From NCBI GenBank assembly GCA_018266215.1, contig JAFEAV010000023.1, positions 760 to 64,759 on the forward strand: DNA of 64,000 nt. Reading direction: 5' to 3'. A program made the translations under genes and the position numbers. This DNA comes from Cyanobacteria bacterium SZAS LIN-3 (GTDB taxonomy: Bacteria > Cyanobacteriota > Vampirovibrionia > Obscuribacterales > Obscuribacteraceae). The notes below the pieces were generated by a model. That model searched no databases. It had not been told where the DNA came from and saw only the letters and a program-made list of their open reading frames with translations. This document shows, piece by piece, positions 6,865 through 19,632 of the stretch (the first letter of the stretch is position 1; every line of letters starts with the position of its first letter).

Positions 6865-7515
6865 TCAGTGAGAACTGCTTGCGGCAGTCGAAATGCTAAG
6901 ACCGCCGATTGTCAAAGAAGTAATCTGCGGACAATTATGGACACCAAGACTGCTAAGAGAACTGGGAAGTTGAGGCAAACAACTCAGTCGCGGGCAGTCT
7001 TCGATGACCAGATGTGTGAGCCAGCCCGGCAGTCGCGGCAGTTTCTCCAGGCTGGAGCAGCTTTTTACCCTGACATACTTAAGAGATTCCGGCAGCCGCG
7101 GCAAACACATTAGCCCTGCGCAGAAATCGACCATGAGATGGCCGAGCGAATCGGGCAAGGTCGATAGACCAGTTACCGTCGGACAGCCTGAAAGAAGTAA
7201 ACTATACAGCCCGTCGGGGAGACGCGGCAGGGTGCCTAACGCTGGGCAGTTTTGCAACTTCAGATCGTGGAGCGATTCCGGCAACTGCGGCAGTTGGCTG
7301 AAAGCGGTGCAATCAAGCACTCGCAGGAAGCGCAGACTTCCGGGCAGGTTGGGAAGGGAGCGCAGACCCGCACAGTTGCTGATGCGCAGATAAGTGAGAG
7401 ATTTCGGTAAGGTCGGCAAACCCGTCAATCCTGGACTGTCCTGAATTTCCAATTGATCCAGACCGGGGTTTTCCCAGAGATATGCAGCTATGGATTCCTT
7501 TGATGCAAAGTTCAT
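6865..7515 (-). CDS. Leucine-rich repeat protein (LPxLPxSL type, Cys-containing repeats)
   Basis: Start placed at the second ATG (MNFASKE), which has AAGGAG 8 nt upstream. There are eight consecutive ~21-aa repeats, e.g. LRSLPNLPGSLRFLRVLDC and LEKLPRLPGWLTHLVIEDC. Confidence 0.8.
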   Translation of the reverse strand: MNFASKESIAAYLWENPGLDQLEIQDSPGLTGLPTLPKSLTYLRISNCAGLRSLPNLPGSLRFLRVLDCTAFSQLPQLPESLHDLKLQNCPALGTLPRLPDGLYSLLLSGCPTVTGLSTLPDSLGHLMVDFCAGLMCLPRLPESLKYVRVKSCSSLEKLPRLPGWLTHLVIEDCPRLSCLPQLPSSLSSLGVHNCPQITSLTIGGLSISTAASSSH

Positions 7516-8116
7516 TTCAAAAACTCCTTTTGCAATCATTTTCGATACTGCCTTCCGGGCAGTGTGAAGTTGGCGCCTCTATTCAGGCGACATCCGCCCC
7601 GCCGTCAGTGTTGCCGACAGCTACATGGTTCATTGGTGTTCTGGGATGCTGTTGATTGTTTTGAAATCCGGCATGCATAGAGGGGGGGGATTCCAACCAA
7701 ACACTTTTGAGTCTTTAACTGCAAGGCAAATCTAGGGACATAAGGCTTCAATCTTCACTACCAGCGATACTATCTATTCAACTGCCATGGCTGAGCTAGC
7801 ACAAAGGTTGGCAAATTTTTGACATTGCGAAAGTATCGCAACCCCACTAACTTTGGCATTTTTTTGGCACTGGTTTGGGCAGCGAAAATTACCCGGGGCA
7901 AATGCCGCGCGCACCGATTTATCTCAGTCCCGTCTGATACGTTTAAGCTGTCTCGGTTATGACAAACGGTAGTACCTTTGTCCATATTTTTTACCTCAGT
8001 GAAGGTTGTGCCGGGGGAGCGACGGTACCTCGAGCCGTCGGCGTCATTGTGAACGCCGACAGCGATGAACGATTATTCTGTGAAAATTACTCAGCGCAAC
8101 TTGAGACCAGGGTGAT

Positions 8117-8560
8117 TCAGAACAAGAACTCCCGCATTAGCGTGGCCACAAGCGCTTCTGTCAGTTGTGTGAGAAGGGTTGACTGCGCCGTAAGGGCATC
8201 CACCAGAAGGCTCCAGCTTTGCCAGGCCGGATTGCCGAACTGATTGTTTTCCGTAAGCTGTGCCTGGGCGAACTTCTGTTTCTCCCGAATGTGTCTTTTT
8301 ACTTGTGTTGAGTAAAGTCCGACATCGGAGACATGTTGCAGCACTATCGCTTGTTTTGCGGATATTTCACCCTTGCTTCTGACTGATGTGCAAAAGGCCA
8401 CAAGCTCAAAGTAGCTTTCCATGCTGCTTTGTACTGCACGGACCAGAGCATCTAAGTCTGCCTTGAACTCTGGGATGTCCTGAAGGGCTGCGTCACATCT
8501 TAGGATGCCGACGAGAGAAGTAAATGCTTTTCTGTAGAATTTTGCTTGTTGGTTTTTCAT
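8117..8560 (-). CDS. Hypothetical helical protein
   Basis: 147-aa ORF with a GGAG Shine-Dalgarno sequence. It is co-directional with its neighbours and separated from the next gene by a 38-bp gap. No recognisable motif. Confidence 0.5.
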   Translation of the reverse strand: MKNQQAKFYRKAFTSLVGILRCDAALQDIPEFKADLDALVRAVQSSMESYFELVAFCTSVRSKGEISAKQAIVLQHVSDVGLYSTQVKRHIREKQKFAQAQLTENNQFGNPAWQSWSLLVDALTAQSTLLTQLTEALVATLMREFLF

Positions 8561-8598
8561 GGTTTGTACTCCAAAGTTTCAAAAAGGGAAAACGCTCT

Positions 8599-9051
8599 CT
8601 AGCCGTAGTGTGCTGCAGTGATGCGGCCGCTCTCGTCTACCCGCAGGTCGAGGGAGATTCGCCCGCTGATTCTGCGCGCTTTTTTAGCCTTGCCTTCGGG
8701 GCGCACCGCAAACTCGATGCGCTTGTTGCCCCATTGTGCAACCCCCAGGGCTTTGTGCAGGACTTCGGTGATGCCGCAGCGACGATCTCCTTCCACCAAT
8801 CTCCGGCGCACCAGCGACAGGTTGGGCAGGCCCAGGTCGTGCGGATGCATGCCGACGGGATAGCCCTCCTCGTCGAGGTAGTCCTTGCTTGCGGCCATCT
8901 CCAGACGCGCCTCCTCCTCGGCTATGCGTTCGACGATTGGACGCCGCGAACTGCAGTCGTAATCGCAATAGCGACGACTTCTTTCAAAACCTCCGAAGCG
9001 ACCGTGGAGGACTTTAGACTTACCATTGTTGAGCCATACGATAGTCTTCAT
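8599..9051 (-). CDS. Hypothetical protein
   Basis: 150-aa ORF with a 30-bp gap to the upstream gene. Basic, with no recognisable motif. Confidence 0.5.
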   Translation of the reverse strand: MKTIVWLNNGKSKVLHGRFGGFERSRRYCDYDCSSRRPIVERIAEEEARLEMAASKDYLDEEGYPVGMHPHDLGLPNLSLVRRRLVEGDRRCGITEVLHKALGVAQWGNKRIEFAVRPEGKAKKARRISGRISLDLRVDESGRITAAHYG

Positions 9052-9081
9052 GGTGTGTGTTCTCGTGATGTGGGTTAAAAG

Positions 9082-9531
9082 TCAGGCCTTGCTGCACGGC
9101 GCATGGTCGCAGCAATTGATGCCGATGTAGAAAAAGAAGGACTGCATGTCAAAGTCATAGTCCCGGACCAGATACGGTTTCAGGCCATGCTCGTGACAGT
9201 AGATGAAAACCCGCATGGCTGCGTGCAGCAGCTTGTATGGGTCCGGGCGACGCGCTTCCCAAAACTCCGACTGCCAGCGCGGATCTTCGCTTGATTCATC
9301 GAAGCGCAGCCGCATGATGCGTCCATACGTGCGACCTTCTCGGAAGTGGGTCTGGACGCATTGCGGTATCTGAGCAATGACTGCTTCATAGCGGGCCTGC
9401 ATTTCACCGCTCAGTTGTTCGTGCATGGCGGCGACCAGGGCTTCTTGCTGCCTCTGAGCCTCTTGCGCCGCTTGTTGACCAGAGTTGGCCGCTCCTTTAA
9501 CGGCGTCGATAAAGTCATTGTCGTTTGCCAT
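9082..9531 (-). CDS. Hypothetical protein
   Basis: Start placed at MANDNDF (9529-9531), 10 bp after the ABC gene stop. No recognisable motif. Confidence 0.5.
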   Translation of the reverse strand: MANDNDFIDAVKGAANSGQQAAQEAQRQQEALVAAMHEQLSGEMQARYEAVIAQIPQCVQTHFREGRTYGRIMRLRFDESSEDPRWQSEFWEARRPDPYKLLHAAMRVFIYCHEHGLKPYLVRDYDFDMQSFFFYIGINCCDHAPCSKA

Positions 9532-9541
9532 TGAATCGTCC

Positions 9542-11368
9542 TCAGACATGCAGAGGGACGAGCTCCCAGCCACCGTCTCCGGTCAAGTTGAGGGCTTGTG
9601 CGTGGAAGCTGTCCAGTGAAGGTCGATGACCGACCGAGACATAAGTGGCACCAATAGATTGCAGGGTGCGGTAGAGCAGCTCTTCATTGGCCAGGTCCAG
9701 AGCGCTGGTCGCTTCGTCCAGGAAGACAAACCGCGGTCGGGCGATCAGCAGTCGAGCGAAGGCCAGACGTTGTTGCTCGCCCGGGGACAGTTCATCGCTC
9801 CAGGGGCGGAACATACCACTTTCTCCAGCGCCCGGGTAACCGTCCAGACCGCCCGGATAGCGGCTGGCAAGGAATCCCACATTGGCCTGTTCAAGAGCGG
9901 CAATCAGTGTGGCATCAGGTACAGCGCGGTCGAGACTGGGATACAAGAGCTGTTCGCGCAGAGTGCCCAGGCTCATGTATGGTTTCTGGGAGAGGAACAT
10001 CAAGGACGACAGGTCGGGTCTGTGGACTGTACCGGTGCCCGATCGCCAGAGACCGGCGATGGTTCTGAGCAGGGAGCTTTTGCCGCAGCCGCTGGAGCCT
10101 TTGATGAGCAGACCCGTACCTTGTGGGACGGTTGCCGAGACATTGCGAATCAGCAAACGTTTGTAGTCCGGTGTCATGAGAGTGACATTTTCGACAGCGA
10201 TGGTCTCTCCCACTATCGTGGCAATCGACGTATGCTCGCCGGTTTCGCTGGGATCCTTGCCCTTGAGTGCAGCGAGCAGCCCGGTCAGACGATTGACGTT
10301 GGCGGCAAAGGTACTGATTGTGCCAATCTGCGAGACGAAAATCGCCAGTGCGCCGAGCACTTGCGTGAAAGCCATACTGGCCTGGGCAAATGCACCAATC
10401 TGCACCTTGCCTTGCAAATAGAGCGGCAACATGATGGCCGCCGGCAGGATGGCCACAAAGTAGTCAAACCACGTGGTGAAGAGACTGACCTGCCGCTGAT
10501 ATCCGATCAGTGACAGATTGTTTTTCAAGGCAGCGTGAAAGCGCTTCAGGAGTTGGATAAACTCCGCCTTTTCGCCCTGGTAGAAAGCGATCGGTTCCAC
10601 ATTGTTGCGGATGTTGATCAGCCCGTAGCGGTAGTCGGCTTCCAGTTTTTGCTGGTTGTATTTAAAGCTGATCAGCTTGACCGAGAGCCAGATTGAAATA
10701 ATCGTGCCGGAGGCAGCATAGATTATGACGATGGCCGTAAGTGAAAACGACAGGCCCCACAATATCTGGATAAAAAAGAAGAGCGTAATCACCGCGTCAG
10801 CGACGGCAAGCACAAGGGCCAGTGCACCGCTGACAAATCCATCCACATCATTGGCTATACGTTCGTCGGGGTTATCGACGAGCGAAGTGGCCGCGATGCG
10901 GTAAAAGTTGCGTGCAGCAAAGTACAGCTTGAGAATATACTCCGTCAGCCACTTGCGCCACACGATCGCTAGCAGGCTGCGCAACCAGGCATAGATAACC
11001 ACAATCGGCGCGGCGACAACAAAGATTGAGGCCAGAATCGTCAGGTTATGCCAGGCGGCACTGACCAGGGCGGGATCTTTAGCGGCGTTGGGCAGCGTGT
11101 TTTGGAACGCGCCGTGGGCACCGTTAATCATGGCGTTCATTTTGCTGACGGCGATCAGGAATAGAAAGAGCAAAATGGCCAGGCCCCAGGCTTTGAATCT
11201 TTCCTGGATTTTGAACTTGAGACCGACGTAGGGGACTGTTATTTCAGACAGGTCGCGTGAGGTGAAGAAAGGTCTGGCCAGCTCTCCAACACTTTGCCAG
11301 AGGGCAGCGCTGAATATGCTGGAGTCGATGTTGATGTACGACAGAAACGCTCGTACTCTGGTGCTCAT
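9542..11368 (-). CDS. ABC half-transporter, fused permease-ATPase of the ABCD / SbmA-BacA-like type
   Basis: 608 aa. N-terminal multi-TM domain with the DNPDERIANDVDGF block typical of ABC_membrane_2 (ABCD) proteins. Walker A GSSGCGKSS, signature LSPGEQQR, Walker B FVFLDEATSALD. Confidence 0.8.
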   Translation of the reverse strand: MSTRVRAFLSYINIDSSIFSAALWQSVGELARPFFTSRDLSEITVPYVGLKFKIQERFKAWGLAILLFLFLIAVSKMNAMINGAHGAFQNTLPNAAKDPALVSAAWHNLTILASIFVVAAPIVVIYAWLRSLLAIVWRKWLTEYILKLYFAARNFYRIAATSLVDNPDERIANDVDGFVSGALALVLAVADAVITLFFFIQILWGLSFSLTAIVIIYAASGTIISIWLSVKLISFKYNQQKLEADYRYGLINIRNNVEPIAFYQGEKAEFIQLLKRFHAALKNNLSLIGYQRQVSLFTTWFDYFVAILPAAIMLPLYLQGKVQIGAFAQASMAFTQVLGALAIFVSQIGTISTFAANVNRLTGLLAALKGKDPSETGEHTSIATIVGETIAVENVTLMTPDYKRLLIRNVSATVPQGTGLLIKGSSGCGKSSLLRTIAGLWRSGTGTVHRPDLSSLMFLSQKPYMSLGTLREQLLYPSLDRAVPDATLIAALEQANVGFLASRYPGGLDGYPGAGESGMFRPWSDELSPGEQQRLAFARLLIARPRFVFLDEATSALDLANEELLYRTLQSIGATYVSVGHRPSLDSFHAQALNLTGDGGWELVPLHV

Positions 11369-12144
11369 AAATTTCTCCCGATGTGACCGGGCATTTCGAC
11401 GATTGCCGTACGAACTGTCTCGGTAATTAAGCCCGGGTCAAGACTGGCAAAGTCGTGCAACCAGATCGGTGTGCCGATCGTGACGGTCGCGCCTTTGCGC
11501 CACTTCAGGCCCATGGCCAGATAAGGACCTTTGGCCGTTTCTATATGGCGCCCGTGGTAGGTAAAACGAATCGGCACGAAGCCGATTTTCTCCCTGCGCT
11601 CGAGCTTTTCATATGCGCCGACGGCAATGAGCGAGAGCCCCAATTTAAAGGGCAGGAATTCGCCGGTGGGGCTGATTTTTGCCTCCGGAAAAATGACCAG
11701 TGCTTCGCCCGCACTCAAAACGTCAACGGCCGGCTGAATGGCGGTTTTGCCCTTCGAGCGATCGACTGCAAAGGAGCCGATGGCGCCCATGATGATGGCT
11801 TTCAATCCGCGGATGCCGCGCATTTCTTCGACCGCAGTCATGAAGCGTGGGAAGCGATTGAGAGCAACGTAGAGCAGGATTGGATCGAACATACTTGAGT
11901 GATTGGCGCAGAAGATAATGCGACTTTCGGTTGGGATGTTTTCGCGGCCAATCACTTTGACGCGCCCGACTTGAATGAACATCCAGATGCGGGCCAGAAT
12001 CTTGCCGATATATTGAATCGAGCGCACAGTATGCGGCATGAATCCGCTACTGAGACATTGATTTGCATAACGGCATATGACTCTATATCTGGTGCCGACT
12101 GTAACGCTAAGCGCGCGCCAGTCGTGATGTAATAGGTTTTTCAT
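11365..12144 (-). CDS. plsC: 1-acyl-sn-glycerol-3-phosphate (lysophospholipid) acyltransferase family protein
   Basis: Start at MKNLL, with GAGGAG 8 nt upstream. HX4D motif NHSSMFD and an FPEAKISPTGE block. The stop overlaps the ABC gene start as ATGA. Confidence 0.75.
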   Translation of the reverse strand: MKNLLHHDWRALSVTVGTRYRVICRYANQCLSSGFMPHTVRSIQYIGKILARIWMFIQVGRVKVIGRENIPTESRIIFCANHSSMFDPILLYVALNRFPRFMTAVEEMRGIRGLKAIIMGAIGSFAVDRSKGKTAIQPAVDVLSAGEALVIFPEAKISPTGEFLPFKLGLSLIAVGAYEKLERREKIGFVPIRFTYHGRHIETAKGPYLAMGLKWRKGATVTIGTPIWLHDFASLDPGLITETVRTAIVEMPGHIGRNL

Positions 12145-12212
12145 AGTAAAACTCCTCGCGCTGCCCGGGGACACAAATGCCGTCCTCCGGGAGCGCAGAA
12201 ATAAAATTGGAA

Positions 12213-13121
12213 CTAGCCTTTGCCGGAACCGGTTAGACGGTCCAGTGCGCTGGCCAGGGAAGCCCAGATTTCCGTCGCCCAGAGGCTAACGGAATTGGCC
12301 ATGGCGGCCAGAGATTGCCAGAGGCTCTCCACCCAGGCTGATACCTGCTGTTTGAGTAACGCAAGCCGACCGCCCAACCTGGCGAGCAATGCGCCAATGG
12401 CGGTATTGAGTTTTTGCATCACGGTCGTGAATGCTTGGGCCAGGAAGTTGTAGACAGGCTTTACCAGTTTGACTGCCAGGGCCCAGAGCTTGTCGATGAC
12501 GTTGTTCAGCCTGTGCCAGACCCCCTTTGCCTGTCTGTATAGCCACTCCAGCGCTTTCACAAAGCTTGGCCAGAGGGCGTTAACCAGGCGGACAACCTTG
12601 TCCCAGATCCAGTCGCCGAGTCTCACAGCGTAGGGCCAGAGGAAGCGAACCAGACGGACGACTTTATCCCAGCACCAGGTCCAGGCCCGCTTGACGTACG
12701 GCCGGACGAAGCACCAGAGCCGCCGCAGCTGTGGCCCGATTTTTGTCAGGATTATGCGGATTAAATTCAGTATCCGTCGCACGAGCCGGACAAGTGGCCT
12801 GAATATGACAAGGTAGGCAATCGGGAAGAGGTGCGTGTATGTGAGCACTTTGGCAGGAATGGCCACGGCCAGAGCCCAGAGTCCCAGCACCGGAATGAGC
12901 CAGAAAGCTGCAGCGAAAGCTACCAGAGAGGTCAGGGCTCCCAGCGTTCGCAGGAAGTCGTGGCCCTCATACACTTCTCTGTAGAGTGCTTCCCCGGTCT
13001 TTTTCCAGAGCAGGTAAGGGAGCATTACTGCGCCCATTACACCTTTGGTGATCAGCTCGACTAATTTGAGCAGGGGATTTTTGGAAGAGTGTTTTTGAGC
13101 GTTGTCACTCGTCTCGTTCAT
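12213..13121 (-). CDS. Membrane-anchored protein with a long 11-residue-periodic amphipathic repeat region
   Basis: Start at MNETSDN, with a GAGGAAG Shine-Dalgarno sequence. Hydrophobic helices are followed by about 17 consecutive 11-mers (RLVRFLWPYAV RLGDWIWDKVV RLVNALWPSFV KALEWLYRQAK ...). Confidence 0.65.
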   Translation of the reverse strand: MNETSDNAQKHSSKNPLLKLVELITKGVMGAVMLPYLLWKKTGEALYREVYEGHDFLRTLGALTSLVAFAAAFWLIPVLGLWALAVAIPAKVLTYTHLFPIAYLVIFRPLVRLVRRILNLIRIILTKIGPQLRRLWCFVRPYVKRAWTWCWDKVVRLVRFLWPYAVRLGDWIWDKVVRLVNALWPSFVKALEWLYRQAKGVWHRLNNVIDKLWALAVKLVKPVYNFLAQAFTTVMQKLNTAIGALLARLGGRLALLKQQVSAWVESLWQSLAAMANSVSLWATEIWASLASALDRLTGSGKG

Positions 13122-13239
13122 TTTGCTTCCTCGATGGAAGTCCACATGGAGCGCTCTCCTTAGCACCCCAGGCGAATTTTTAGATTGTCACCACGGTCCG
13201 GTGATGACGGATTGATGTCTGACTTCAATTTTGCTCCAG

Positions 13240-13590
13240 TCAGACTTCGATGCCGGGCACTATCTGGCGAAAATATCCCTTGCCCAGGAGTGATTTTGGT
13301 ATCAGGTGCGATAGCTCACCGGAGTCGGCATTGACTGCTCGCAGGCTGAAAAAATCCTCCGTCACATCTACCACCTCAAAGAACATGCCGCTCAGTCCTG
13401 GTTGTCTCAGCATGCATGCTTCAGCATGATGGCCCGGTCCGTGGTGGTACATGATTTGCAAGATATTGCCGATACTCAGTTTCTTGGAGTTTTGCATTCC
13501 AACATGCTCTCCATCTCCGTAGTATTTCGGGCCCATCCAGTTGTAAAAACGTTCGTTAGAATTATGCATGGCGGCTTCCGATGTCTTCAT
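13240..13590 (-). CDS. Hypothetical soluble protein (last gene of the coupled module)
   Basis: Start at MKTSEAAMHNS. This ATG overlaps the upstream stop as ATGA (13587-13590). No recognisable motif. Confidence 0.5.
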   Translation of the reverse strand: MKTSEAAMHNSNERFYNWMGPKYYGDGEHVGMQNSKKLSIGNILQIMYHHGPGHHAEACMLRQPGLSGMFFEVVDVTEDFFSLRAVNADSGELSHLIPKSLLGKGYFRQIVPGIEV

Positions 13591-13925
13591 CTGATGCCTG
13601 ATGCCAGCAGACTGCCGCCGGCTGCGGTCGCAAACCATGATGTAGCGACTGCCCAGGCCAGGGGGCCTGCTTCATGCAAGACCGCCACACCGAATATTGA
13701 GGACAGGGTCGTCAAAATTGCGATGCCGATCAAAGTGCGGATGGCGGACAGCTTCATAGCCAGGGTTATGCCAAAAGAGAGCAGACCCATCCAGGCAAAG
13801 AATATTGCCAGATGCGTGTCCCATACCATGTTGTAGGTGAAGAGTGCACCGAGCAGGCCCGCTTCTGCTGTGCCGAGGCACCACAGAGCGATTCCCATCG
13901 GGATTTGCCAGTTAATTGATGACAT
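13587..13925 (-). CDS. Small integral membrane protein (about 4 TM helices)
   Basis: 112 aa and strongly hydrophobic. The start overlaps the phosphatase gene end by 14 nt. Confidence 0.6.
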   Translation of the reverse strand: MSSINWQIPMGIALWCLGTAEAGLLGALFTYNMVWDTHLAIFFAWMGLLSFGITLAMKLSAIRTLIGIAILTTLSSIFGVAVLHEAGPLAWAVATSWFATAAGGSLLASGIR

Positions 13926-14619
13926 GGTGGCTTCCTCTATGAAAGTTTTGAAGAGGCGCTTTTTCGTGCGCCGTAGATAGATAGAGCACTTGTTTCAGCA
14001 GTTCATAGTCGCTCGGTTGTCTTTGCCCGCGCAGTTGGAAAACGGCTTCGACTTGCTCGTATGTTTCCACCGCACGGTCGTTATACCTGCTTCGGATTGC
14101 CGCTATCGGATCCGGAGTTTCTTTCCTTGACTCAAGCAGTGCCGCAAGACTGGCCAGAACAGTGCCTGTTCGGCCCAGACCCCCGTCGCAAAAGATGAGG
14201 ATGCGAGCACCTTGCCTGAGCTCGGCTACGATTTCTTCCAGACAGTAGCGGAAGTTGTTGCATACGCCCCCGAAATCGCGCATTGGCACCGCCAGGATCT
14301 GATAGCGTTTGCCGGAGCCGAAGGCCATATGCTGAGTCAGCGGGACCAGCAGGTCGTAGCCTTCGAGATCGCGAGCCGTGAGATACATGCCGCCGGCTGC
14401 CCAGACTTGGTAATCGCCGATTGATACTGCTTTTGGTTTGACGGCCGGGCTGAAGTGTCTGCGCTTTGCCAGGTAGGTGCGCAGTTCATCATCGAGGGCG
14501 GAGTCAGAGGGGAGGTCTGCGATCTTGCCGTCAATTTCCTCTCTTCCGATTGCAAACAAACCGGCAAGTGGAGCCATGCACGCCGCCATTGCCAGACAAA
14601 AAATAGATTGAACATTCAT
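13912..14619 (-). CDS. Cys-based protein-tyrosine/dual-specificity phosphatase-fold protein (CX5R) with an N-terminal signal or anchor
   Basis: Start at MNVQSIFCLAMAACMAPLAG. Its ATG shares one nucleotide with the upstream TGA (TGATG). P-loop ILIFCDGGLGRTGTV matches the C-X5-R-(S/T) signature. Confidence 0.65.
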   Translation of the reverse strand: MNVQSIFCLAMAACMAPLAGLFAIGREEIDGKIADLPSDSALDDELRTYLAKRRHFSPAVKPKAVSIGDYQVWAAGGMYLTARDLEGYDLLVPLTQHMAFGSGKRYQILAVPMRDFGGVCNNFRYCLEEIVAELRQGARILIFCDGGLGRTGTVLASLAALLESRKETPDPIAAIRSRYNDRAVETYEQVEAVFQLRGQRQPSDYELLKQVLYLSTAHEKAPLQNFHRGSHHVIN

Positions 14620-17159
14620 CAGAGTACTCCCTGGCCAGATTCGGCGTTTGAGTTGTTGTCGTTGCATCCGCCCCAGAGGCCGGCAATCAGTCCTTGTTCG
14701 TAAAGAGCCCTGACTTCAGGGTCTAAAGCTTTGTGGAGTGTCGTCAGTCGGGCGAATAGCTTATCGGTGCTGGAGATCGACTTCTTTGCGTCCAGTTGGT
14801 TCTGGAGCAGGTGTTCGTTTGCCTCAGCCATTCTGTGTTTGTTAAAAAGAACGCCTCCGTTGTGTTTGAGGTCAAAAACATGGTCGATATAAATCGAAGC
14901 CGGGACTCTTCCTGCCAGATACTCCCTGGGAGCCGCTGCAATTTGTGACCAGGGTCTGCCGCCAAAGCCGCTGCTCCAGGAGCTGTCGACAAAGGCGTGG
15001 GAAGCCAGGCGGAAGAACTCCTCCTGATAGCTGCAGTTCCTTGCCGCCAGCTTTTTCAATTTTTCCATTGTTGATTCGCCGCAATTACGCAGCTCGCCCA
15101 GGGCTTGCAGTTGCTTGACCTGGGGATTGTTCTTGCGGGCGTAATCCGGCAGCAAGAACAGTTCGGTGTAGACCGCATAAGTCAGGTAGCAGGTCAGTAT
15201 TTCTGCCAGTTGGCTTTCCACGGCTTTCAGTTTTGTGGTAATGCGGTCCTTCAAGGGATGACTTTTGCTGTTGGCCGCCATCGAGCTGAGCAGGTAAAAG
15301 TCGTTGTGCCATTGATTGATGTCCCATATTTGTTCCATCAGCGCCGGCAAGATAGCCGCATCGTGGATACGCAGTTCGGTGCGTTCCAGCCATTCTTTGA
15401 TCATCCGGGTATTGGCAGTAGCCTCGGCGTTTGCGATTGGAATCAGCCCGCGCACTACGATACCGGCGGCACCATCAACACTGACCTCTTGCCCCTCGCT
15501 GATAGTCTGACCGTCGCCAAAAGTCAGCTGATCGCCTTCTATGCGAAAATTGCAGCCCACAACGGCGGGAATATGCAGCCCTCGTGCTACTACCGCAGCG
15601 TGGCTGGTGGTGCCGCCACAGGATGTGATAATAGCTCTGGATGCGAGCATGGCCGGCAGATCGTCCGGGGATGTATCCATGCGCGCCAGGATCACGTCAA
15701 CATCAAAATCCGCCGCTTCCATCGCTTTTTCGATGCTGAAATACAGACGGCCGACGGCCACCTGTGGAGAGGCCGGAATGCCTTGCATATAGCCTTCCAC
15801 CAGAGCTGGTACGATCGCCTCCTGATCGAAGAATGTACAAGTGGTATCGTCGTCCAGAAAGCCGACGCTCATCAGTGCATCTTCTTCAATCCATTCGCCT
15901 TTTGCCACCTGGTTTACGGCAAAGTTGATTGCCGCTTCGCGAGAGCGTTTTGCACTGCGGACCTGTAGCAGATAGAGCACCCCGTCTTCAACAGTGAACT
16001 CAACGTCCACCATATCGCGATAGTGTCTGGCCAGCGTGTTGACGTGCGTCACAAGTTCGGCATAGACATCCGGCATGATCTCAGCTAACCCTTGCAATGA
16101 CAGAGGTGTTCTCACTCCGGCTACCACATCTTCGCCCTGGGCGTTGGCAAGAAATTCACCATAGAGCCCATCTTCCCCGGTAATCGGATTGGCGGAAAAT
16201 ACCACCCCCGTGCCGGAGTTGGCTCCCTTGTTGCCAAAAACCATGGCTTGCAGGATGACGGCAGTGCCCAGGTCGGCCGATATTTCTTCCTTCTTTCTGT
16301 AGGCGATTGCGCGTTCACTGTCCCAGGATTCCAGCACGGCCATGATGGATAAAGCCAGCTGTTCGTAGGGATTCTCCGGCATAGCCCGGCCGCAGCATTG
16401 GACAATAATTTTTTCAAACTGATCGCAAATCAGTTGCAGTTGATCTACGCTCAGCTCGCCGTCATTGTCCACGCCGCTGTGTTCCCTGGCCGTTTTCAGG
16501 CAGTTTTCAAACAGGCTGCGATCCGCGCCTAATACCGTGGTCCCAAACATTGCCAGGCAGCGGCGATACGAGTCCCAGGCAAAGCGTTCGCCCGCCCGTT
16601 GTCCCAGGCCGATTACAGAGTGACGATTGAGACCAACATTGAGAATGGTATCCATCATGCCGGGCATGCTCACTGGGGCACCGGAGCGCACTGAGAGTAA
16701 AAGCGGCTTGTCCTTGTTTCCGAAGGTCAAACCGCTTTGTCTCTCAAGCGACTCTATGGCCAGTGCGAGTTCTCGTGCGAGGGAGGCCGGCAATTTGCCT
16801 CTTGTGTTGAAATAGCGTGAGGCTGTTGTCAGCACTGTGGCGCCTGGGGTACCGGGAATGCCAAGTCTGGCCATTTCAGAGAGTCCCATGCCTTTGCCGC
16901 CACGAAGGTCAGGATCAAAAGAACCGAGGTGTCCTTCGGCAAAGTCGAAAACAAGACGGGGGGAAAGCAGACGGTCGGTGAAGTGGGACACTTTGATCCG
17001 CGCCAGCGGGAGTGAACCGATCAGACCGCGAGCGGCAAGTAGTTCCCGGTAAAGCACCGCGGCATGGCTGAGATTCGACTGAGGAGATTCATTCGTGGTG
17101 CTGAAGTCTGATGATTGCTCGGGCCAGTTAAGTGTAAATTGAGTTGCTGTAGCGTTCAT
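14619..17159 (-). CDS. Pyruvate-phosphate-dikinase-family enzyme with a non-canonical C-terminal domain
   Basis: Start at MNATATQ, with GGAG 6 nt upstream. PPDK N-terminal blocks GGKGMGLSEMARLGIP, MMDTILNVGLN, WDSYRRCLAMFG, GEFLANAQGEDVVAGVRTP and DVEFTVEDGVLYLLQVRSAKRS. Swivel domain TSPDDLPAM...GGTTSHAAVVARGLHIPAVVG. The last ~270 aa lack every PEP/pyruvate TIM-barrel block. Confidence 0.8.
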   Translation of the reverse strand: MNATATQFTLNWPEQSSDFSTTNESPQSNLSHAAVLYRELLAARGLIGSLPLARIKVSHFTDRLLSPRLVFDFAEGHLGSFDPDLRGGKGMGLSEMARLGIPGTPGATVLTTASRYFNTRGKLPASLARELALAIESLERQSGLTFGNKDKPLLLSVRSGAPVSMPGMMDTILNVGLNRHSVIGLGQRAGERFAWDSYRRCLAMFGTTVLGADRSLFENCLKTAREHSGVDNDGELSVDQLQLICDQFEKIIVQCCGRAMPENPYEQLALSIMAVLESWDSERAIAYRKKEEISADLGTAVILQAMVFGNKGANSGTGVVFSANPITGEDGLYGEFLANAQGEDVVAGVRTPLSLQGLAEIMPDVYAELVTHVNTLARHYRDMVDVEFTVEDGVLYLLQVRSAKRSREAAINFAVNQVAKGEWIEEDALMSVGFLDDDTTCTFFDQEAIVPALVEGYMQGIPASPQVAVGRLYFSIEKAMEAADFDVDVILARMDTSPDDLPAMLASRAIITSCGGTTSHAAVVARGLHIPAVVGCNFRIEGDQLTFGDGQTISEGQEVSVDGAAGIVVRGLIPIANAEATANTRMIKEWLERTELRIHDAAILPALMEQIWDINQWHNDFYLLSSMAANSKSHPLKDRITTKLKAVESQLAEILTCYLTYAVYTELFLLPDYARKNNPQVKQLQALGELRNCGESTMEKLKKLAARNCSYQEEFFRLASHAFVDSSWSSGFGGRPWSQIAAAPREYLAGRVPASIYIDHVFDLKHNGGVLFNKHRMAEANEHLLQNQLDAKKSISSTDKLFARLTTLHKALDPEVRALYEQGLIAGLWGGCNDNNSNAESGQGVL

Positions 17160-17697
17160 AGATAGCTCCGATTCCGATTGGAATGTTGAGTTCAAAAAAA
17201 TCGCCCAGGCAGATCTCATCTCGTCAGCCCGCGGGCGAACGAAAAAGGAGAGCGGTAGGCGGGAATGGATAAAAGGTGTTTTTTATGCCGGTTAAAGGAG
17301 AGGAAGTTGTTCTTCCATATTGGCCTTAACTAAACCCTTGTTGGCAAGTGCTATAGAACCCTGTATGGGCCTCGATTAGTGTTTTTCCCAGGACAATACT
17401 TGCCTCTGCTGAAACTGTCTCATTGCGCGGCGCGGAAGCGTGTCGTCGTCGCGACCCTATCGCATTGCCGGTGGTGTCAAATTTCATCACATAGATTGAG
17501 TTGTCCTGGCGCTATTTGTTAGAGCTGGGGGTATCCAATTCATTCCCTCTCCATCCGGCGCATTTCCTTAAACACTGCATACGTCGCTAACTCTCCGCTT
17601 TTTCCAAGCACCTGCCGGTGTCTGTGAGCGGGACTGTATCTGGATAATTTCGTCCTTCAACTTCGTCCATCAACCACCTACAAAAACAGGTATCCCA

Positions 17698-19632
17698 ATG
17701 GAAAAATCAAGAATGAGCTTTGCCCAGCTCTTGCTCAACGTAATATTTATCATCCCCGTCACACTCCGCGTCAGCGGTAAATGGTTGTGCCATCGTGCAT
17801 ACGGTACCGGAGGCTGGGCCAGGACATTACCGGTCGCACTGGTCGGTCTTGCCCTGGGCGTGATGACCGGTTGGCAGGTCGCGGATAGAATTGCCTTCGA
17901 GTTTGCCCCCGGCGCTTTCAGCTGGCTGCTGAATTCCTCCAGCTGGTTTTTAACTTTCCTGCTCGTCGCCTCGCTTGTGTACACGCATGTCTGGTCGGCG
18001 ATCTATTATTTTGCGCTGCGCCATTTGTGGGACTTGTGGGAGCGAGCATGGCGCGCCTATGAACGTATCTGGAAGAGCGTACTGCTCCCGGGCCTTGAGG
18101 CTCTCGTGAAAATCATAAAAGTGGCCCCGGGGTCTACTTATCTCTGGTCGCATCTGGAGGATGAAAACGGTATTCGCTCAAAAGGAATACGGTTGCTGGA
18201 GGTTTTGTGTATCATTGCCATTTTCGGCGCCGGCGGTTATTCAGGATATCTGACCTATGAGCTGGTCTCCGCTTCAGGGCTGCAATTTGTTGGTCTTAGT
18301 GCGGTAGCTACAACTCTGGCTGTTATCGTTGCCATTTCCCTGGTGGGTCTGATCAGCCCCTTGTTTGACAGTAAGGCCTATGCATCGGTGGCTGCTGCCA
18401 GCGCCATGAGCACCTCCGTACTGTTCTTCTTGCCGCCGGCTTTTCTCGGACAGACTTTTGCCATCAAAGCTCTGGCCCTGTTCGCCATGTTCGTTTTTGG
18501 CGTAGCCTATACGGTGCCGGCGCTTGTAATCTTCATGCAAGGCGGATTTATGAAGAAGGTTCTGACTCAATGGAGGCGCATGCTTGATACCGCATACGGT
18601 GAGGAAAGCGATAAGGATTATCAGCGGTTCTTCCAGCACGCCCTCAATATCGCGCTGTCATTTGTCCTGACCTGGATTGCTTACAGCATCAGTATCAGCA
18701 TTGGATTCGCCTACTGGCTTGCCTTCCTGGTCGCTGCCCTGACCCTGGTCTATACCTATGCCGAGGGATTCCAGAAACATCTGGGTCAATCAAAGGCAAA
18801 TACCGAGCTGGCCTTCGTGTCCATCCTCGCGGTTTCCTATCTCAGCTATCAGGCGGTAACAGCATCTTCCGCCGCCGTCGCCTTTGGTCTTTCCCTGGCT
18901 GCCTTTCTGGCTACGGCTCTGATTGCGTATCCTTTCTTCTACATCGCCCTGCGTTTTGTCACCAGACGATTCGTCACCTCTGCCGGCTATGCTCTGGAGA
19001 AAGTACATGCCCGCTTGTCCAGCCGCGTGGTTGCCGCTTTTGCCTGGCTGCGCCGGAAGCAGGATGAAGCCTTCAATGATAGATCCGAGTTTGCCGGTCT
19101 TTTTGGCCATCTCCTCAACGTCGCCATTCTGGCGGCGGCACTGACCCTGTGGATCCCCTCTGCGGCCGCTTATGCGACCAGCAACATTTTCTTTGAGATA
19201 GCGATTTTCGCTTTCGTCTCAGTTAACGGCTTTATCCTATTAGGACGGTTATTCTCGTCCTACAGCGGTGCTACTCTGGGCTTCTTCACTGGCCTGTCCA
19301 CCTTCGCGGCGGTAGCCTATTTCGTCAATGATATGAGCGGGTCCCTGACCATCGCATTGTTGGTGGCCGGCGTTGCCAGCGGTATCGTAGGCGGTGTCGT
19401 CGCCCCGCTCTTCTATTTGCAGGTGGCCCGGCTGCTCGCTCCTTTTACGGCTACTCTGGCGCCGCCTGTTAATCGTGTTTTCAACATTTTGTGGTCTGCT
19501 TATAGGGACCTCTGGATTGCATTCGGGCGTCACTTTGCAGTCGTTCTGGCATTGCTTCAGCCCTTGTTTGCTGCGGTGGCGCGTACCTGGCAAACCGTTG
19601 CCGCGCAGTTGACTCGCCTGTTCGGCGCTTAA
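17698..19632 (+). CDS. Large polytopic membrane protein, function unknown
   Basis: 644 aa, with many hydrophobic helices throughout. Transcribed divergently from the dikinase-like operon. Confidence 0.65.
   Translation: MEKSRMSFAQLLLNVIFIIPVTLRVSGKWLCHRAYGTGGWARTLPVALVGLALGVMTGWQVADRIAFEFAPGAFSWLLNSSSWFLTFLLVASLVYTHVWSAIYYFALRHLWDLWERAWRAYERIWKSVLLPGLEALVKIIKVAPGSTYLWSHLEDENGIRSKGIRLLEVLCIIAIFGAGGYSGYLTYELVSASGLQFVGLSAVATTLAVIVAISLVGLISPLFDSKAYASVAAASAMSTSVLFFLPPAFLGQTFAIKALALFAMFVFGVAYTVPALVIFMQGGFMKKVLTQWRRMLDTAYGEESDKDYQRFFQHALNIALSFVLTWIAYSISISIGFAYWLAFLVAALTLVYTYAEGFQKHLGQSKANTELAFVSILAVSYLSYQAVTASSAAVAFGLSLAAFLATALIAYPFFYIALRFVTRRFVTSAGYALEKVHARLSSRVVAAFAWLRRKQDEAFNDRSEFAGLFGHLLNVAILAAALTLWIPSAAAYATSNIFFEIAIFAFVSVNGFILLGRLFSSYSGATLGFFTGLSTFAAVAYFVNDMSGSLTIALLVAGVASGIVGGVVAPLFYLQVARLLAPFTATLAPPVNRVFNILWSAYRDLWIAFGRHFAVVLALLQPLFAAVARTWQTVAAQLTRLFGA

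What the first reader, a model, noticed from the sequence alone, without database searches (positions are those of the whole stretch)
8117..17159. Eleven same-strand genes with short gaps or overlaps may form one large uncharacterised locus
- **Layout:** Every gene from 17159 down to 8117 is on the minus strand.
- **Junctions:** They are separated by -14, -4, -4 and -1 nt overlaps, or by gaps of 10, 30, 38, 68 and 118 bp. I found no convincing terminator hairpin inside the run.
- **Boundaries:** A ~540-bp divergent intergenic region lies at 17160-17697. A non-coding stretch lies at 7516-8116.
- **Content:** Dikinase-like enzyme, CX5R phosphatase, 4-TM protein, orphan protein, 11-mer repeat protein, PlsC, ABCD transporter and three orphans. 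None of these combinations matches a pathway I know.
Basis: inference. Interest (0 to 1): 0.65.

Follow-up and report, generated by a model that had tools for sequence, protein, structure and literature searches.

The report
Dikinase-phosphatase cassette in mosaic gene run
The same-strand run is not one system. Only its first two genes travel together across many bacteria and some phages: a pyruvate-phosphate-dikinase-like enzyme whose pyruvate domain is replaced by a new helical domain, and a cysteine phosphatase. What they phosphorylate is unknown.

Summary
The run is real but holds ten ORFs, not eleven. The source is a Melainabacteria/Obscuribacterales-like MAG.

Comparative genomics does not support one locus.
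- **Conserved pair:** only the dikinase (14619-17159) and the CX5R phosphatase (13912-14619, stop/start overlap TGATG) recur together. In 46 species-level loci, 30 have the phosphatase adjacent and 32 have a further small partner, "B", which the window lacks.
- **Backbone genes:** PlsC and the ABCD transporter belong to a housekeeping backbone in relatives. There they are unlinked to the cassette and in a different order.
- **Other six ORFs:** they look coding but recur near neither anchor.

The dikinase keeps the PPDK ATP-grasp and swivel-His domains (His520). It lacks the PEP/pyruvate TIM barrel and ends in a confidently modelled all-alpha domain with no PDB match. Homologues of the same three modules, split into separate genes, sit next to DNA polymerase I in Vibrio, Rhizobium and Stenotrophomonas siphophages, where the dikinase is annotated as a "PPDK".

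Best reading: an ATP-driven phosphohistidine phosphotransferase with a new acceptor domain, plus a resetting phosphatase. The substrate is unknown.

The parts
14619..17159 (-). Dikinase (846 aa): PPDK-type ATP-grasp domain, then the swivelling phosphohistidine domain, then a new all-alpha C-terminal domain. There is no PEP/pyruvate TIM barrel.
   Evidence: PF01326 E 7e-37 and PF00391 E 2e-21, with no PF02896. TIGR01828 matches only profile positions 2-531 of 865, at 545.6 bits against a cut-off of 843. It is 100% identical to a hypothetical protein of MAG 'Cyanobacteria bacterium SZAS LIN-2'.
15366..16958 (-). PPDK-homologous part (aa 68-598): the nucleotide-binding ATP-grasp domain and the swivel domain. 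PPDK motifs GGKG (aa 87), VRSGA (157), DVEFT (385) and LLQVR (397) are kept.
   Evidence: The region is 44-48% identical to bona fide PPDKs over the N-terminal 56-62% of the protein only.
15600..15602 (-). Codon of His520 in GGTTSHAAVVARG, the predicted phosphocarrier histidine.
   Evidence: Read directly from the sequence. The column is nearly invariant in the 49-sequence family alignment.
14622..15410 (-). C-terminal all-alpha domain (263 aa modelled), the proposed acceptor-binding and phosphotransfer domain. Invariant residues are Y75, E83, G151, W154, D176, D180, H183, N184 and K191. The motif is DH[VA][FW]DLxHNGG.
   Evidence: AF2 pLDDT 90.8, pTM 0.86. No PDB fold match: best E 0.38, TM at most 0.21. 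Four phage proteins match in BFVD with probability 1.0 and TMq up to 0.68. phrog_20946 E 1e-15. The domain occurs in 1025 50%-identity clusters.
13912..14619 (-). Cysteine (CX5R) phosphatase of the minimal PTP/DSP type (235 aa). Its start overlaps the dikinase stop codon by 1 nt (TGATG). It has an N-terminal hydrophobic helix (aa 3-26, 14542-14613), the catalytic Cys144 codon at 14188-14190, and a candidate general-acid residue, Asp115.
   Evidence: PF22785 scores 26.7 bits against a cut-off of 27. PDB sequence hits: ShufPTP, Tk-PTP, SsoPTP and DUSP23 at E 3e-8 to 5e-5. AF2 plus Foldseek match the same group with probability 1.0 and TMt 0.6-0.77. It is conserved next to the dikinase. The membrane anchor occurs only in this clade.
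13587..13925 (-). 112-aa hydrophobic (3-4 TM) ORF. It overlaps the phosphatase gene by 14 nt.
   Evidence: coding score 0.097, best of six frames. It was not found next to any other dikinase locus. Its 90% cluster holds only a sibling MAG.
13240..13590 (-). 116-aa soluble ORF with no family match. It overlaps the previous gene by 4 nt (ATGA).
   Evidence: It is not syntenic elsewhere.
12213..13121 (-). 302-aa protein with an N-terminal hydrophobic segment (aa 58-94) followed by about 15 Trp-phased 11-residue amphipathic repeats.
   Evidence: Autocorrelation peaks at 11 and 22 residues. Only weak matches to phage tape-measure repeat regions. It is not syntenic elsewhere.
12151..12202 (-). Strong RNA hairpin in the 68-nt gap, directly upstream of the PlsC ribosome-binding site. 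It could be a transcription-unit boundary, an attenuator or an mRNA-stability element.
   Evidence: -31.3 kcal/mol, z -4.26, matched by 0 of 200 shuffles.
11365..12144 (-). PlsC-type acyltransferase (259 aa) with an HX4D motif (NHSSMFD). This is a backbone gene.
   Evidence: PF01553 E 7.5e-21. Orthologues at 53-55% identity lie in three relatives, 2.3 kb downstream of ABCD.
9542..11368 (-). ABCD-type (ABC_membrane_2) half-transporter (608 aa). Its start overlaps the PlsC stop by 4 nt. This is a backbone gene.
   Evidence: PF06472 E 5e-43 and PF00005 E 1e-15. Orthologues at 59-74% identity occur on about 15 metagenome contigs that carry none of the other genes of the run.
8117..9531 (-). Three ORFs of 149, 150 and 147 aa (9082-9531, 8599-9051, 8117-8560) with no family match.
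   Evidence: Searches gave no hits. Their coding scores are 0.10-0.16, best in the annotated frame. They are absent from the 8-kb flanks of ABCD orthologues. Their 90% clusters hold sibling MAGs only.

Best explanation
**The run is a mosaic of three kinds of gene**
1. A two-gene cassette at its 5' end: the dikinase plus the cysteine phosphatase.
2. Two housekeeping membrane and lipid genes, PlsC and the ABCD transporter, which belong to the local backbone of Obscuribacterales genomes.
3. Six lineage-restricted ORFs.

Only the cassette is a conserved functional unit.

**Proposed mechanism**
- *Shown by homology:* the PPDK-type ATP-grasp domain uses ATP to load the swivelling domain on His520.
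- *Inferred from architecture:* the loaded domain swings to the C-terminal all-alpha domain, which sits where the PEP/pyruvate TIM barrel sits in PPDK. This domain carries an invariant Asp/His/Asn/Lys/Glu/Tyr cluster. The phosphate passes there to a bound acceptor.
- *Inferred:* the translationally coupled CX5R phosphatase removes that phosphate, so the pair forms a phosphorylation-dephosphorylation cycle.

**Acceptor:** unknown. My leading guess, at about 0.35-0.4, is a protein Ser/Thr/Tyr.
- The phosphatase's nearest sequence and fold relatives are all protein phosphatases.
- Most loci add a small conserved protein, 'B', which is sometimes fused to the phosphatase.
- A nucleic-acid or nucleotide acceptor is the main alternative.

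In this lineage the phosphatase has a membrane anchor, so the cycle probably runs at the membrane.
For: **Architecture**
- PF01326 and PF00391 are present, PF02896 is absent, and TIGR01828 is matched only to position 531.
- The catalytic motifs and His520 are kept.
- The C-domain is modelled confidently (pLDDT 90.8), has no PDB neighbour, and carries 12 invariant residues.

**Linkage**
- The dikinase with this C-domain occurs in 52 GTDB species loci.
- Of 46 loci with enough flanking DNA, 30 have the phosphatase adjacent, 32 have B, and 39 have at least one of them.
- Fusions exist: dikinase + C-domain + phosphatase in P0219, and B + phosphatase at L004:5852-6814.
- The stop/start overlap is TGATG.

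**Independent recurrence in phages**
- 39 phage records carry the dikinase N-part, and 39 records from essentially the same phage genera carry a stand-alone C-domain homologue.
- In the three phage loci examined (Vibrio Ares1, Rhizobium RHph_Y1_11, Stenotrophomonas DLP3) the dikinase, one or two PTPs and the C-domain protein sit in one block upstream of PolA.

**Phosphatase type:**

**Mosaic structure:**
Against: - No substrate is identified, and nothing here is biochemical.
- 16 of 46 loci lack an adjacent phosphatase and 7 lack both partners, so the cycle may not be obligatory.
- The window lacks B, so B cannot be the universal acceptor unless it is encoded elsewhere in the genome.
- The phosphatase scores just under Pfam's cut-offs, and its model rests on a 7-sequence alignment (pLDDT 72).
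- The nearest-neighbour class of a DSP is a weak guide to its substrate.
- Short overlaps and same-strand layout are compatible with a longer transcript that includes downstream genes.
- Membrane features shared by several genes of the run could reflect a local functional link that synteny across distant relatives would miss.
Confidence: 0.6

Rival explanations
1. The cassette acts on DNA, on nucleotides or on a DNA-bound protein. It would be the cellular form of a phage module that contributes to DNA modification or replication. The dikinase would phosphorylate (activate) a nucleic-acid-linked hydroxyl, and the phosphatase would trim or reset it.
For: - In the three phage loci examined (Vibrio Ares1, Rhizobium RHph_Y1_11, Stenotrophomonas DLP3), the split dikinase, PTP and C-domain genes sit directly upstream of DNA polymerase I.
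- DNA of two carriers is refractory to restriction enzymes, and the modification is undetermined. For DLP3, 0 of 15 enzymes cut (PMC7326821). For DLP5, 4 of 36 cut (PMC5834331).
- Partner B often ends in repeats that resemble SAP/HeH DNA-binding motifs. This is a resemblance from memory, not a test.
Against: - Position next to PolA is shared ancestry within one phage group, not independent evidence.
- Those phages also carry glycosyltransferases and methyltransferases that could explain the resistance.
- The cellular loci have no DNA-metabolism neighbours.
- The phosphatase's nearest relatives are protein phosphatases, not the RNA or polynucleotide phosphatases of the same fold.
- No paper in the library links a dikinase to DNA modification.
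Confidence: 0.25
2. One reading: all ten genes form one operon with one function. One possibility is a membrane or lipid-remodelling pathway that links phosphorylation, acyl transfer and transport.
For: - The genes share a strand and have four overlapping junctions.
- There is a membrane theme:
  - the phosphatase is TM-anchored in this clade;
  - the 112-aa ORF is hydrophobic;
  - the repeat protein has a TM segment and amphipathic repeats;
  - PlsC and ABCD are present;
  - the divergent 644-aa neighbour is a polytopic membrane protein.
Against: - There is no synteny beyond the dikinase-phosphatase pair in 46 dikinase loci, and none in about 15 ABCD loci.
- PlsC and ABCD are arranged differently in relatives and sit among housekeeping genes.
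- A strong hairpin lies between the repeat protein and PlsC, and there is a 118-nt gap before the repeat protein.
Confidence: 0.1
3. A toxin-antitoxin or anti-phage defence pair. The dikinase would be a toxin that phosphorylates an essential target, and the phosphatase its antidote.
For: - The kinase-phosphatase pairing is tightly coupled.
- There are several paralogous loci per genome and tandem duplicates (L004; three loci in one Obscuribacter MAG).
- The phosphatase matches Pfam families first defined in polymorphic-toxin and polyvalent phage proteins (PF22785, PF22784).
- Some loci lie next to mobile or restriction-modification genes.
Against: - No PADLOC model matches the dikinase, the phosphatase or any orphan ORF.
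- 16 of 46 dikinase loci have no adjacent phosphatase, which a strict antidote model does not allow.
- The pair is retained in tiny Patescibacteria genomes, and inside lytic phage replication modules.
Confidence: 0.1
4. The gene is an ordinary pyruvate, phosphate dikinase of central metabolism, as homologues are annotated in MAGs and as phage 'auxiliary metabolic genes'.
For: - Database names say so.
- A phage paper says so (PMC12038007).
- The N-terminal 530 residues are strongly similar to PPDK.
Against: - The PEP/pyruvate domain PF02896 is absent from the window protein and from the phage proteins.
- The score is far below the TIGR01828 cut-off.
- The C-terminal 260 residues form a different, all-alpha fold.
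Confidence: 0.02

Closest known systems
Pyruvate, phosphate dikinase (PPDK, EC 2.7.9.1; TIGR01828)
   Same: - It has the ATP-grasp nucleotide domain and the swivelling phosphohistidine domain.
- Identity is 44-48% over that part.
- The catalytic TSH motif and the nucleotide-site motifs are kept.
   Different: - The PEP/pyruvate TIM barrel is missing.
- It is replaced by a 260-aa all-alpha domain with no solved relative.
- A dedicated cysteine phosphatase is encoded next to it.
Rifampin phosphotransferase (RPH) and other dikinases with a swapped acceptor domain (PigC/RedH, phenylphosphate synthase, the HpeHI kinase)
   Same: The logic is the same: an ATP-grasp domain and a swivel His carrier serve a family-specific substrate-binding domain (PMC4844700 and PMC12167813, listed).
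   Different: - The acceptor domain is unrelated.
- The domain order differs.
- NCBIfam scores against these families are low and restricted to the swivel domain.
- Those systems have no phosphatase partner.
Glucan, water dikinase with the SEX4/LSF2/laforin glucan phosphatases
   Same: To my knowledge, this is the only known case in which a dikinase and a DSP-fold phosphatase run a phosphorylation-dephosphorylation cycle on one substrate.
   Different: - Neither protein here has a carbohydrate-binding module.
- The phosphatase's nearest relatives are archaeal PTPs and DUSP23, not glucan phosphatases.
- It is bacterial and phage-borne, and operonic.
PTS Enzyme I passing phosphate to HPr
   Same: A swivelling phosphohistidine domain hands phosphate to a small partner protein. 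This is a possible model for the dikinase and protein B.
   Different: - Enzyme I is charged by PEP through a TIM barrel, not by ATP through an ATP-grasp domain.
- B has no detectable similarity to HPr.
'PPDK' - PTP - hypothetical-protein block of Vibrio (Ares1, VHS1, J26, SIO-2), Rhizobium (RHph_Y1_11, TM16) and Stenotrophomonas (DLP3, DLP5) siphophages
   Same: Homologues of all three modules are present:
- dikinase N-part, 37-39% identity over about 500 aa;
- C-domain, 27-29% identity, E 4e-14 to 9e-8 against the full-length dikinase and 6e-17 for the C-domain alone against the Ares1 protein;
- CX5R phosphatase.
   Different: - The modules are split into separate genes.
- The phage dikinase has its own 170-190-aa tail.
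- There are one or two phosphatases.
- The block lies beside PolA.
- It is uncharacterised and described in the literature only as a PPDK 'AMG'.

Membership tests
Pyruvate, phosphate dikinase | PPDK_N ATP-grasp nucleotide-binding domain | tested here: met
   PF01326 E 7.2e-37. The motifs GGKG, VRSGA, DVEFT and LLQVR are present.
Pyruvate, phosphate dikinase | Swivelling domain with the catalytic His in a TSH motif | tested here: met
   PF00391 E 1.8e-21. His520 lies in GGTTSHAAVVARG.
Pyruvate, phosphate dikinase | C-terminal PEP/pyruvate-binding TIM barrel (PF02896) | tested here: not met
   There is no PF02896 hit, whereas true PPDKs in the same search carry it. The C-terminal model is all-alpha.
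Pyruvate, phosphate dikinase | Reaches the curated equivalog score (TIGR01828, 843.45 bits) | tested here: not met
   545.6 bits, with the match ending at profile position 531 of 865.
Cysteine-based PTP/DSP phosphatases | CX5R phosphate-binding loop with the nucleophilic Cys | tested here: met
   C144-D-G-G-L-G-R150, invariant among close homologues.
Cysteine-based PTP/DSP phosphatases | Conserved Asp about 30 residues upstream of the Cys (general acid) | tested here: met
   D115 in PMRDFGG is invariant and aligns with PDFGG across the family. Its catalytic role is inferred.
Cysteine-based PTP/DSP phosphatases | DSP fold | tested here: met
   Foldseek probability 1.0 and TMt 0.6-0.77 to ShufPTP, Tk-PTP, VHZ/DUSP23 and SDP-1. 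The model is of moderate quality (pLDDT 72).
Cysteine-based PTP/DSP phosphatases | Passes a Pfam gathering score | tested here: inconclusive
   PF22785 scores 26.7 against 27.0, PF22784 scores 24 against 27, and PF00782 scores 20.1 against 33.5. The precomputed annotation of the same protein lists PF22785.
Single operon or functional locus of all ten genes | Gene set conserved together in other genomes | tested here: not met
   Only the dikinase-phosphatase pair recurs.
Single operon or functional locus of all ten genes | No internal transcription boundaries | tested here: inconclusive
   There is a strong hairpin at 12151-12202, and gaps of 118 and 68 nt. The consensus scans are uninformative. 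Transcripts cannot be measured here.
Toxin-antitoxin pair | The antidote gene always accompanies the toxin gene | tested here: not met
   16 of 46 dikinase loci have no adjacent phosphatase.
Known anti-phage defence systems (PADLOC) | Match to a defence-system protein model | tested here: not met
   There are no hits for the dikinase, the phosphatase or the orphan ORFs. Only generic ABC-ATPase hits appear for the transporter.
ABCD-type ABC half-transporter | ABC_membrane_2 domain plus an ABC ATPase in one chain | tested here: met
   PF06472 E 4.8e-43 and PF00005 E 1.3e-15. It scores below the TIGR00954 cut-off (256 against 919), so its substrate is not assigned.
PlsC/LPLAT acyltransferases | Acyltransferase domain with an HX4D motif | tested here: met
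   PF01553 E 7.5e-21. NHSSMFD is visible in the translation.

The most novel reading that the evidence does not exclude
The cassette is the cellular, fused form of a four-part system shared by Melainabacteria, Patescibacteria and a group of siphophages. The four parts are the dikinase, the helical acceptor domain, the cysteine phosphatase and the small protein B.

In this reading the system uses a swivelling phosphohistidine to place or cycle a phosphate on DNA or on a DNA-bound protein. That would be a new enzymatic route. It might underlie the undetermined modification that makes Delepquintavirus DNA refractory to restriction enzymes.
Probability: 0.2. Interest if true: 0.85.

Novelty: new variant of a known kind. 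Interest (0 to 1): 0.58.

Why it matters
- **Misannotation:** a widespread protein family is currently annotated as pyruvate, phosphate dikinase. This affects metabolic reconstructions of Patescibacteria and Melainabacteria, and phage papers that call it an auxiliary metabolic gene. The family lacks the pyruvate/PEP domain, so those metabolic inferences are probably wrong.
- **New chemistry to test:** the family pairs well-understood phosphohistidine chemistry with a new-fold acceptor domain and a dedicated phosphatase. The same parts recur in phages. That gives a concrete, testable entry to an unknown phosphorylation target in poorly understood bacteria.
- **Possible link to phage DNA:** it may also bear on unexplained phage DNA resistance to restriction enzymes.
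- **For the scan:** a tidy same-strand run with overlapping genes can be a mosaic whose only conserved unit is a pair.

Tried and rejected
- **Chimeric orphan query.** I concatenated five orphan ORFs and searched the 5.8-billion-cluster protein collection. Nothing was returned. The test is invalid: the exact sequences are in that collection and were still not recovered. So nothing can be said about remote homologues of the orphans.
- **PBS-linker similarity.** The C-domain gave a weak phmmer match to the three linker repeats of Gloeobacter Glr1262 (summed E 2.5e-5, each repeat insignificant). Foldseek found no PDB match for the domain, so I do not rely on it.
- **Exact look-up of the dikinase** failed.
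- **Plasmid megablast** of the region found nothing.
- **RNA searches.** Rfam and tRNA scans of the window were empty.
- **Consensus scans.** The promoter and terminator scans gave nothing useful.
- **Fusion partners.** Pfam scans of giant or long C-domain proteins were uninformative.
- **Protein B against the phage ~290-aa proteins.** Profile-profile comparison gave probability 15%, E 0.0017. The aligned motifs are suggestive, but this is not evidence of homology.
- **Upstream genes in some Melainabacteria.** Clusters c4, c8 and c74 look like lineage synteny, for example an alpha/beta hydrolase, so I dropped them.
- **Literature.** Searches for a described function of dikinase-plus-phosphatase pairs found none.

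Full report
**1. Observation**

The region 8117-17159 holds ten minus-strand ORFs, not eleven. NCBI gene calls on a sibling assembly give the same products for the first four genes and for the divergent neighbours.

- All ten ORFs score best in the annotated frame. Their codon-usage scores (0.09-0.22) fall in the range of long conserved genes of the window.
- Both boundaries are as described: 538 bp of divergent intergenic DNA and a 601-bp gap.
- An eleventh minus-strand gene, an LRR protein at 6865-7515, lies beyond that gap.
- One claim fails. The 68-nt gap between the repeat protein and PlsC folds into a hairpin of -31.3 kcal/mol (z -4.26, matched by 0 of 200 shuffles).
- Runs of six same-strand ORFs flank the region, so strand bias alone is not notable.

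**2. Source**

The dikinase is 100% identical to a hypothetical protein of the MAG 'Cyanobacteria bacterium SZAS LIN-2'. Its nearest relatives are Candidatus Obscuribacter proteins at about 55% identity. The source contig is 78 kb. By these names, the organism is a non-photosynthetic relative of cyanobacteria (Melainabacteria/Obscuribacterales).

**3. What the genes are**

| Gene | Coordinates | Finding |
|---|---|---|
| Dikinase | 14619-17159 | PF01326 and PF00391, no PF02896; TIGR01828 matched only to position 531 of 865, at 545 bits against a cut-off of 843 |
| Phosphatase | 13912-14619 | CX5R loop; borderline Pfam DSP/PTP hits |
| PlsC | 11365-12144 | Clear acyltransferase |
| ABCD half-transporter | 9542-11368 | Clear |
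| 302-aa protein | 12213-13121 | Real 11-residue Trp-phased periodicity after a hydrophobic segment |
| 112-aa ORF | 13587-13925 | Hydrophobic |
| Other four ORFs | see parts | No family match in Pfam, NCBIfam, PHROGs or PADLOC |

**4. Synteny from the dikinase side**

A pattern from the C-terminal domain (DH[VA][FW]DLxHN) recovered 52 loci in one-genome-per-species GTDB contigs. Most are Obscuribacterales/Melainabacteria and Saccharibacteria or other Patescibacteria. A few are Gammaproteobacteria, Chloroflexota and Binatia MAGs.

- tblastn of every window protein against these loci found only the dikinase and the phosphatase repeatedly.
- PlsC appeared once, 4 kb away. One orphan appeared once, 9 kb away.
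- The divergent 644-aa membrane protein appeared only in Obscuribacter, 7 kb away.
- Partner census of the 46 non-redundant loci with at least 1.5 kb downstream:

| Partners next to the dikinase | Loci |
|---|---|
| Phosphatase and B | 23 |
| Phosphatase only | 7 |
| B only | 9 |
| Neither | 7 |

- The phosphatase-only group includes the window's closest relative.
- 'B' is a previously unnoticed small protein.
  - Its N-domain reads MAGTEGTGEY ... RVRVEP ... GWKQPG ... RFS.
  - It often has C-terminal helix-loop-helix-like repeats.
  - It has no Pfam or PDB match.
  - It is absent from the whole window.
- Fusions tie the parts together. P0219 joins dikinase, C-domain and phosphatase. L004:5852-6814 joins B and phosphatase.

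**5. Synteny from the transporter side**

ABCD orthologues at 59-74% identity on about 15 metagenome contigs carry none of the dikinase, phosphatase or orphan genes within 8 kb.

- PlsC orthologues occur in three of these contigs. They lie 2.3 kb downstream of ABCD, separated from it by PrsW and RseP-type protease genes.
- Orthologues of the window's citrate synthase and other housekeeping genes are nearby.
- PlsC and ABCD therefore belong to a rearranged housekeeping backbone.
- The cassette and the orphans are absent from that backbone in these relatives.

**6. The C-terminal domain**

- In a 49-sequence family alignment the domain has 12 invariant positions: Y75, E83, G151, W154, I157, D176, D180, L181, H183, N184, F189 and K191.
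- AlphaFold2 gives an all-alpha model with pLDDT 90.8 and pTM 0.86.
- Foldseek finds nothing in the PDB (best E 0.38, TM at most 0.21).
- It does find four phage proteins in BFVD with probability 1.0 and TMq up to 0.68.
- An exhaustive phmmer search finds the domain in 1025 50%-identity clusters. Most are at the C-terminus of 700-800-aa dikinases. Some are stand-alone and a few lie in very large proteins.

**7. Phage counterpart**

- The domain matches phrog_20946 (E 1e-15).
- By tblastn it matches 39 phage records: 33 Vibrio siphophages of about 80 kb, plus Rhizobium, Stenotrophomonas, Rhodobacter and one uncultured phage.
- Essentially the same group carries the dikinase N-part: 39 of the 54 records that match it.
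- In Ares1, RHph_Y1_11 and DLP3 the gene order is as follows:
  1. dikinase (no TIM barrel);
  2. small ORFs;
  3. PTP;
  4. C-domain protein;
  5. a second PTP (not in Ares1);
  6. a protein of about 290 aa;
  7. DNA polymerase I.
- The literature treats the phage gene as a PPDK 'auxiliary metabolic gene', on modelling and docking alone (PMC12038007).
- DLP3 and DLP5 DNA resist most restriction enzymes, and the modification is undetermined (PMC7326821 and PMC5834331).
- I found no paper that assigns a function to this module.

**8. The phosphatase**

- It has C144-X5-R150 and an invariant Asp115.
- Its closest solved relatives by sequence are ShufPTP, Tk-PTP, SsoPTP and DUSP23.
- A moderate-quality model (pLDDT 72) matches the same protein phosphatases and other DUSPs with probability 1.0.
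- An N-terminal membrane helix is present only in the window protein and its Obscuribacter orthologues.

**9. Mechanism**

- *Shown by homology:* ATP-dependent loading of His520 on a swivelling domain.
- *Inferred from architecture, fusions and conservation:* transfer to an acceptor held by the new all-alpha domain, which replaces the TIM barrel, and removal of the phosphate by the coupled phosphatase.
- *Because the N-part is so PPDK-like,* the overall reaction is probably ATP + Pi + X giving AMP + PPi + X-P. This is an inference.
- *The acceptor is unknown.* I rank the classes as follows.

| Acceptor class | Estimate | Reason |
|---|---|---|
| Protein | about 0.35-0.4 | The phosphatase class, and partner B |
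| Nucleic acid, nucleotide or DNA-bound target | about 0.25 | The phage context |
| Other small molecules, lipids or glycans | lower | No specific support |

- A strict toxin-antitoxin reading is weakened by the 16 of 46 loci without a phosphatase, and a defence reading by the absence of PADLOC matches.
- The 'ordinary PPDK' reading fails the defining-domain test.

**10. Verdict**

The finding as framed, one large locus, is not supported. Inside it is a real, widespread, uncharacterised dikinase-phosphatase module with a new-fold acceptor domain and phage relatives. It is a new variant of the PEP-utilising dikinase family, not a new kind of system. The rest of the run is backbone genes plus lineage-restricted ORFs whose function and remote homology I could not assess. 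My one attempt was technically invalid.

Noticed in passing
L008:12767-13117, L018:5231-5698, L032:9088-9591 and about 30 other related loci (not in the window): Small conserved protein family 'B' next to the dikinase and/or phosphatase in 32 of 46 loci.
- It has invariant G-T-E-G, Y, R, RxRxEP, W and RFS positions.
- It often has C-terminal repeats of the form LxAxLRxxKxPGANxASRWSLxTLRxK.
- It has no Pfam or PDB match.
- It is fused to the phosphatase in L004 and L040.
- It could be the substrate or a targeting subunit.
   Followed up: partly
window 12151-12202 (-): A very stable hairpin (-31.3 kcal/mol, z -4.26) between the repeat-protein gene and PlsC, ending just before the PlsC ribosome-binding site. 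It could be a terminator, an attenuator or an mRNA-stability element.
   Followed up: partly
window 8033-8063 (-): A 12-bp GC-rich hairpin (-22.5 kcal/mol) about 55 nt downstream of the last gene's stop codon, with no U-tract. The surrounding 97 nt have z -2.4. It is a possible end of the transcript.
   Followed up: partly
window 6865-7515 (-): A 216-aa protein made almost entirely of roughly 20-residue leucine-rich repeats (LPxLPxSLxxLxxxxCxxLxxLP), reminiscent of bacterial effector LRRs. Its coding score is low (-0.04), and the exact sequence is not in the protein collection.
   Followed up: partly
window 17698-19632 (+): The divergently transcribed 644-aa protein is a polytopic membrane protein with no family match. 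It has Trp-rich amphipathic stretches like those of the 302-aa repeat protein. An orthologue at 49% identity lies 7 kb from the dikinase in Candidatus Obscuribacter.
   Followed up: partly
proteins P0175, P0190, P0193, P0230, P0253, P0188 and P0045 (long dikinase homologues): These have His-rich C-terminal tails of about 200 aa. The tails carry short islands that look like Walker A (GxxGxGK[ST]), Walker B, HExxH and vWA-MIDAS (DxSGSM[SG]) motifs, without the corresponding domains. This is unexplained. They could be metal-binding tails or pseudo-substrates.
   Followed up: no
L061:3650-5725, L062:3066-5228, L063:6123-8066 (phages Ares1, RHph_Y1_11, DLP3): Phage genes annotated as 'pyruvate phosphate dikinase', and published as auxiliary metabolic genes, lack the PF02896 PEP/pyruvate domain. 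DLP3's 'thymidylate synthase' gp141 is a CX5R phosphatase homologue. Both annotations look wrong.
   Followed up: yes
window 14965-15145 (-), C-domain residues 89-149: A weak similarity to each of the three phycobilisome-linker repeats of Gloeobacter Glr1262 (PDB 9k9w; summed E 2.5e-5, each repeat insignificant). Fold search does not support it.
   Followed up: partly
L004 (soil Melainabacteria MAG) and several MAGs: The cassette is multi-copy. There is a tandem arrangement of phosphatase, dikinase, phosphatase, dikinase on one contig, and two or three separate loci in single Obscuribacter and 'Planktothrix' MAGs. This points to diversification, not a single housekeeping role.
   Followed up: no
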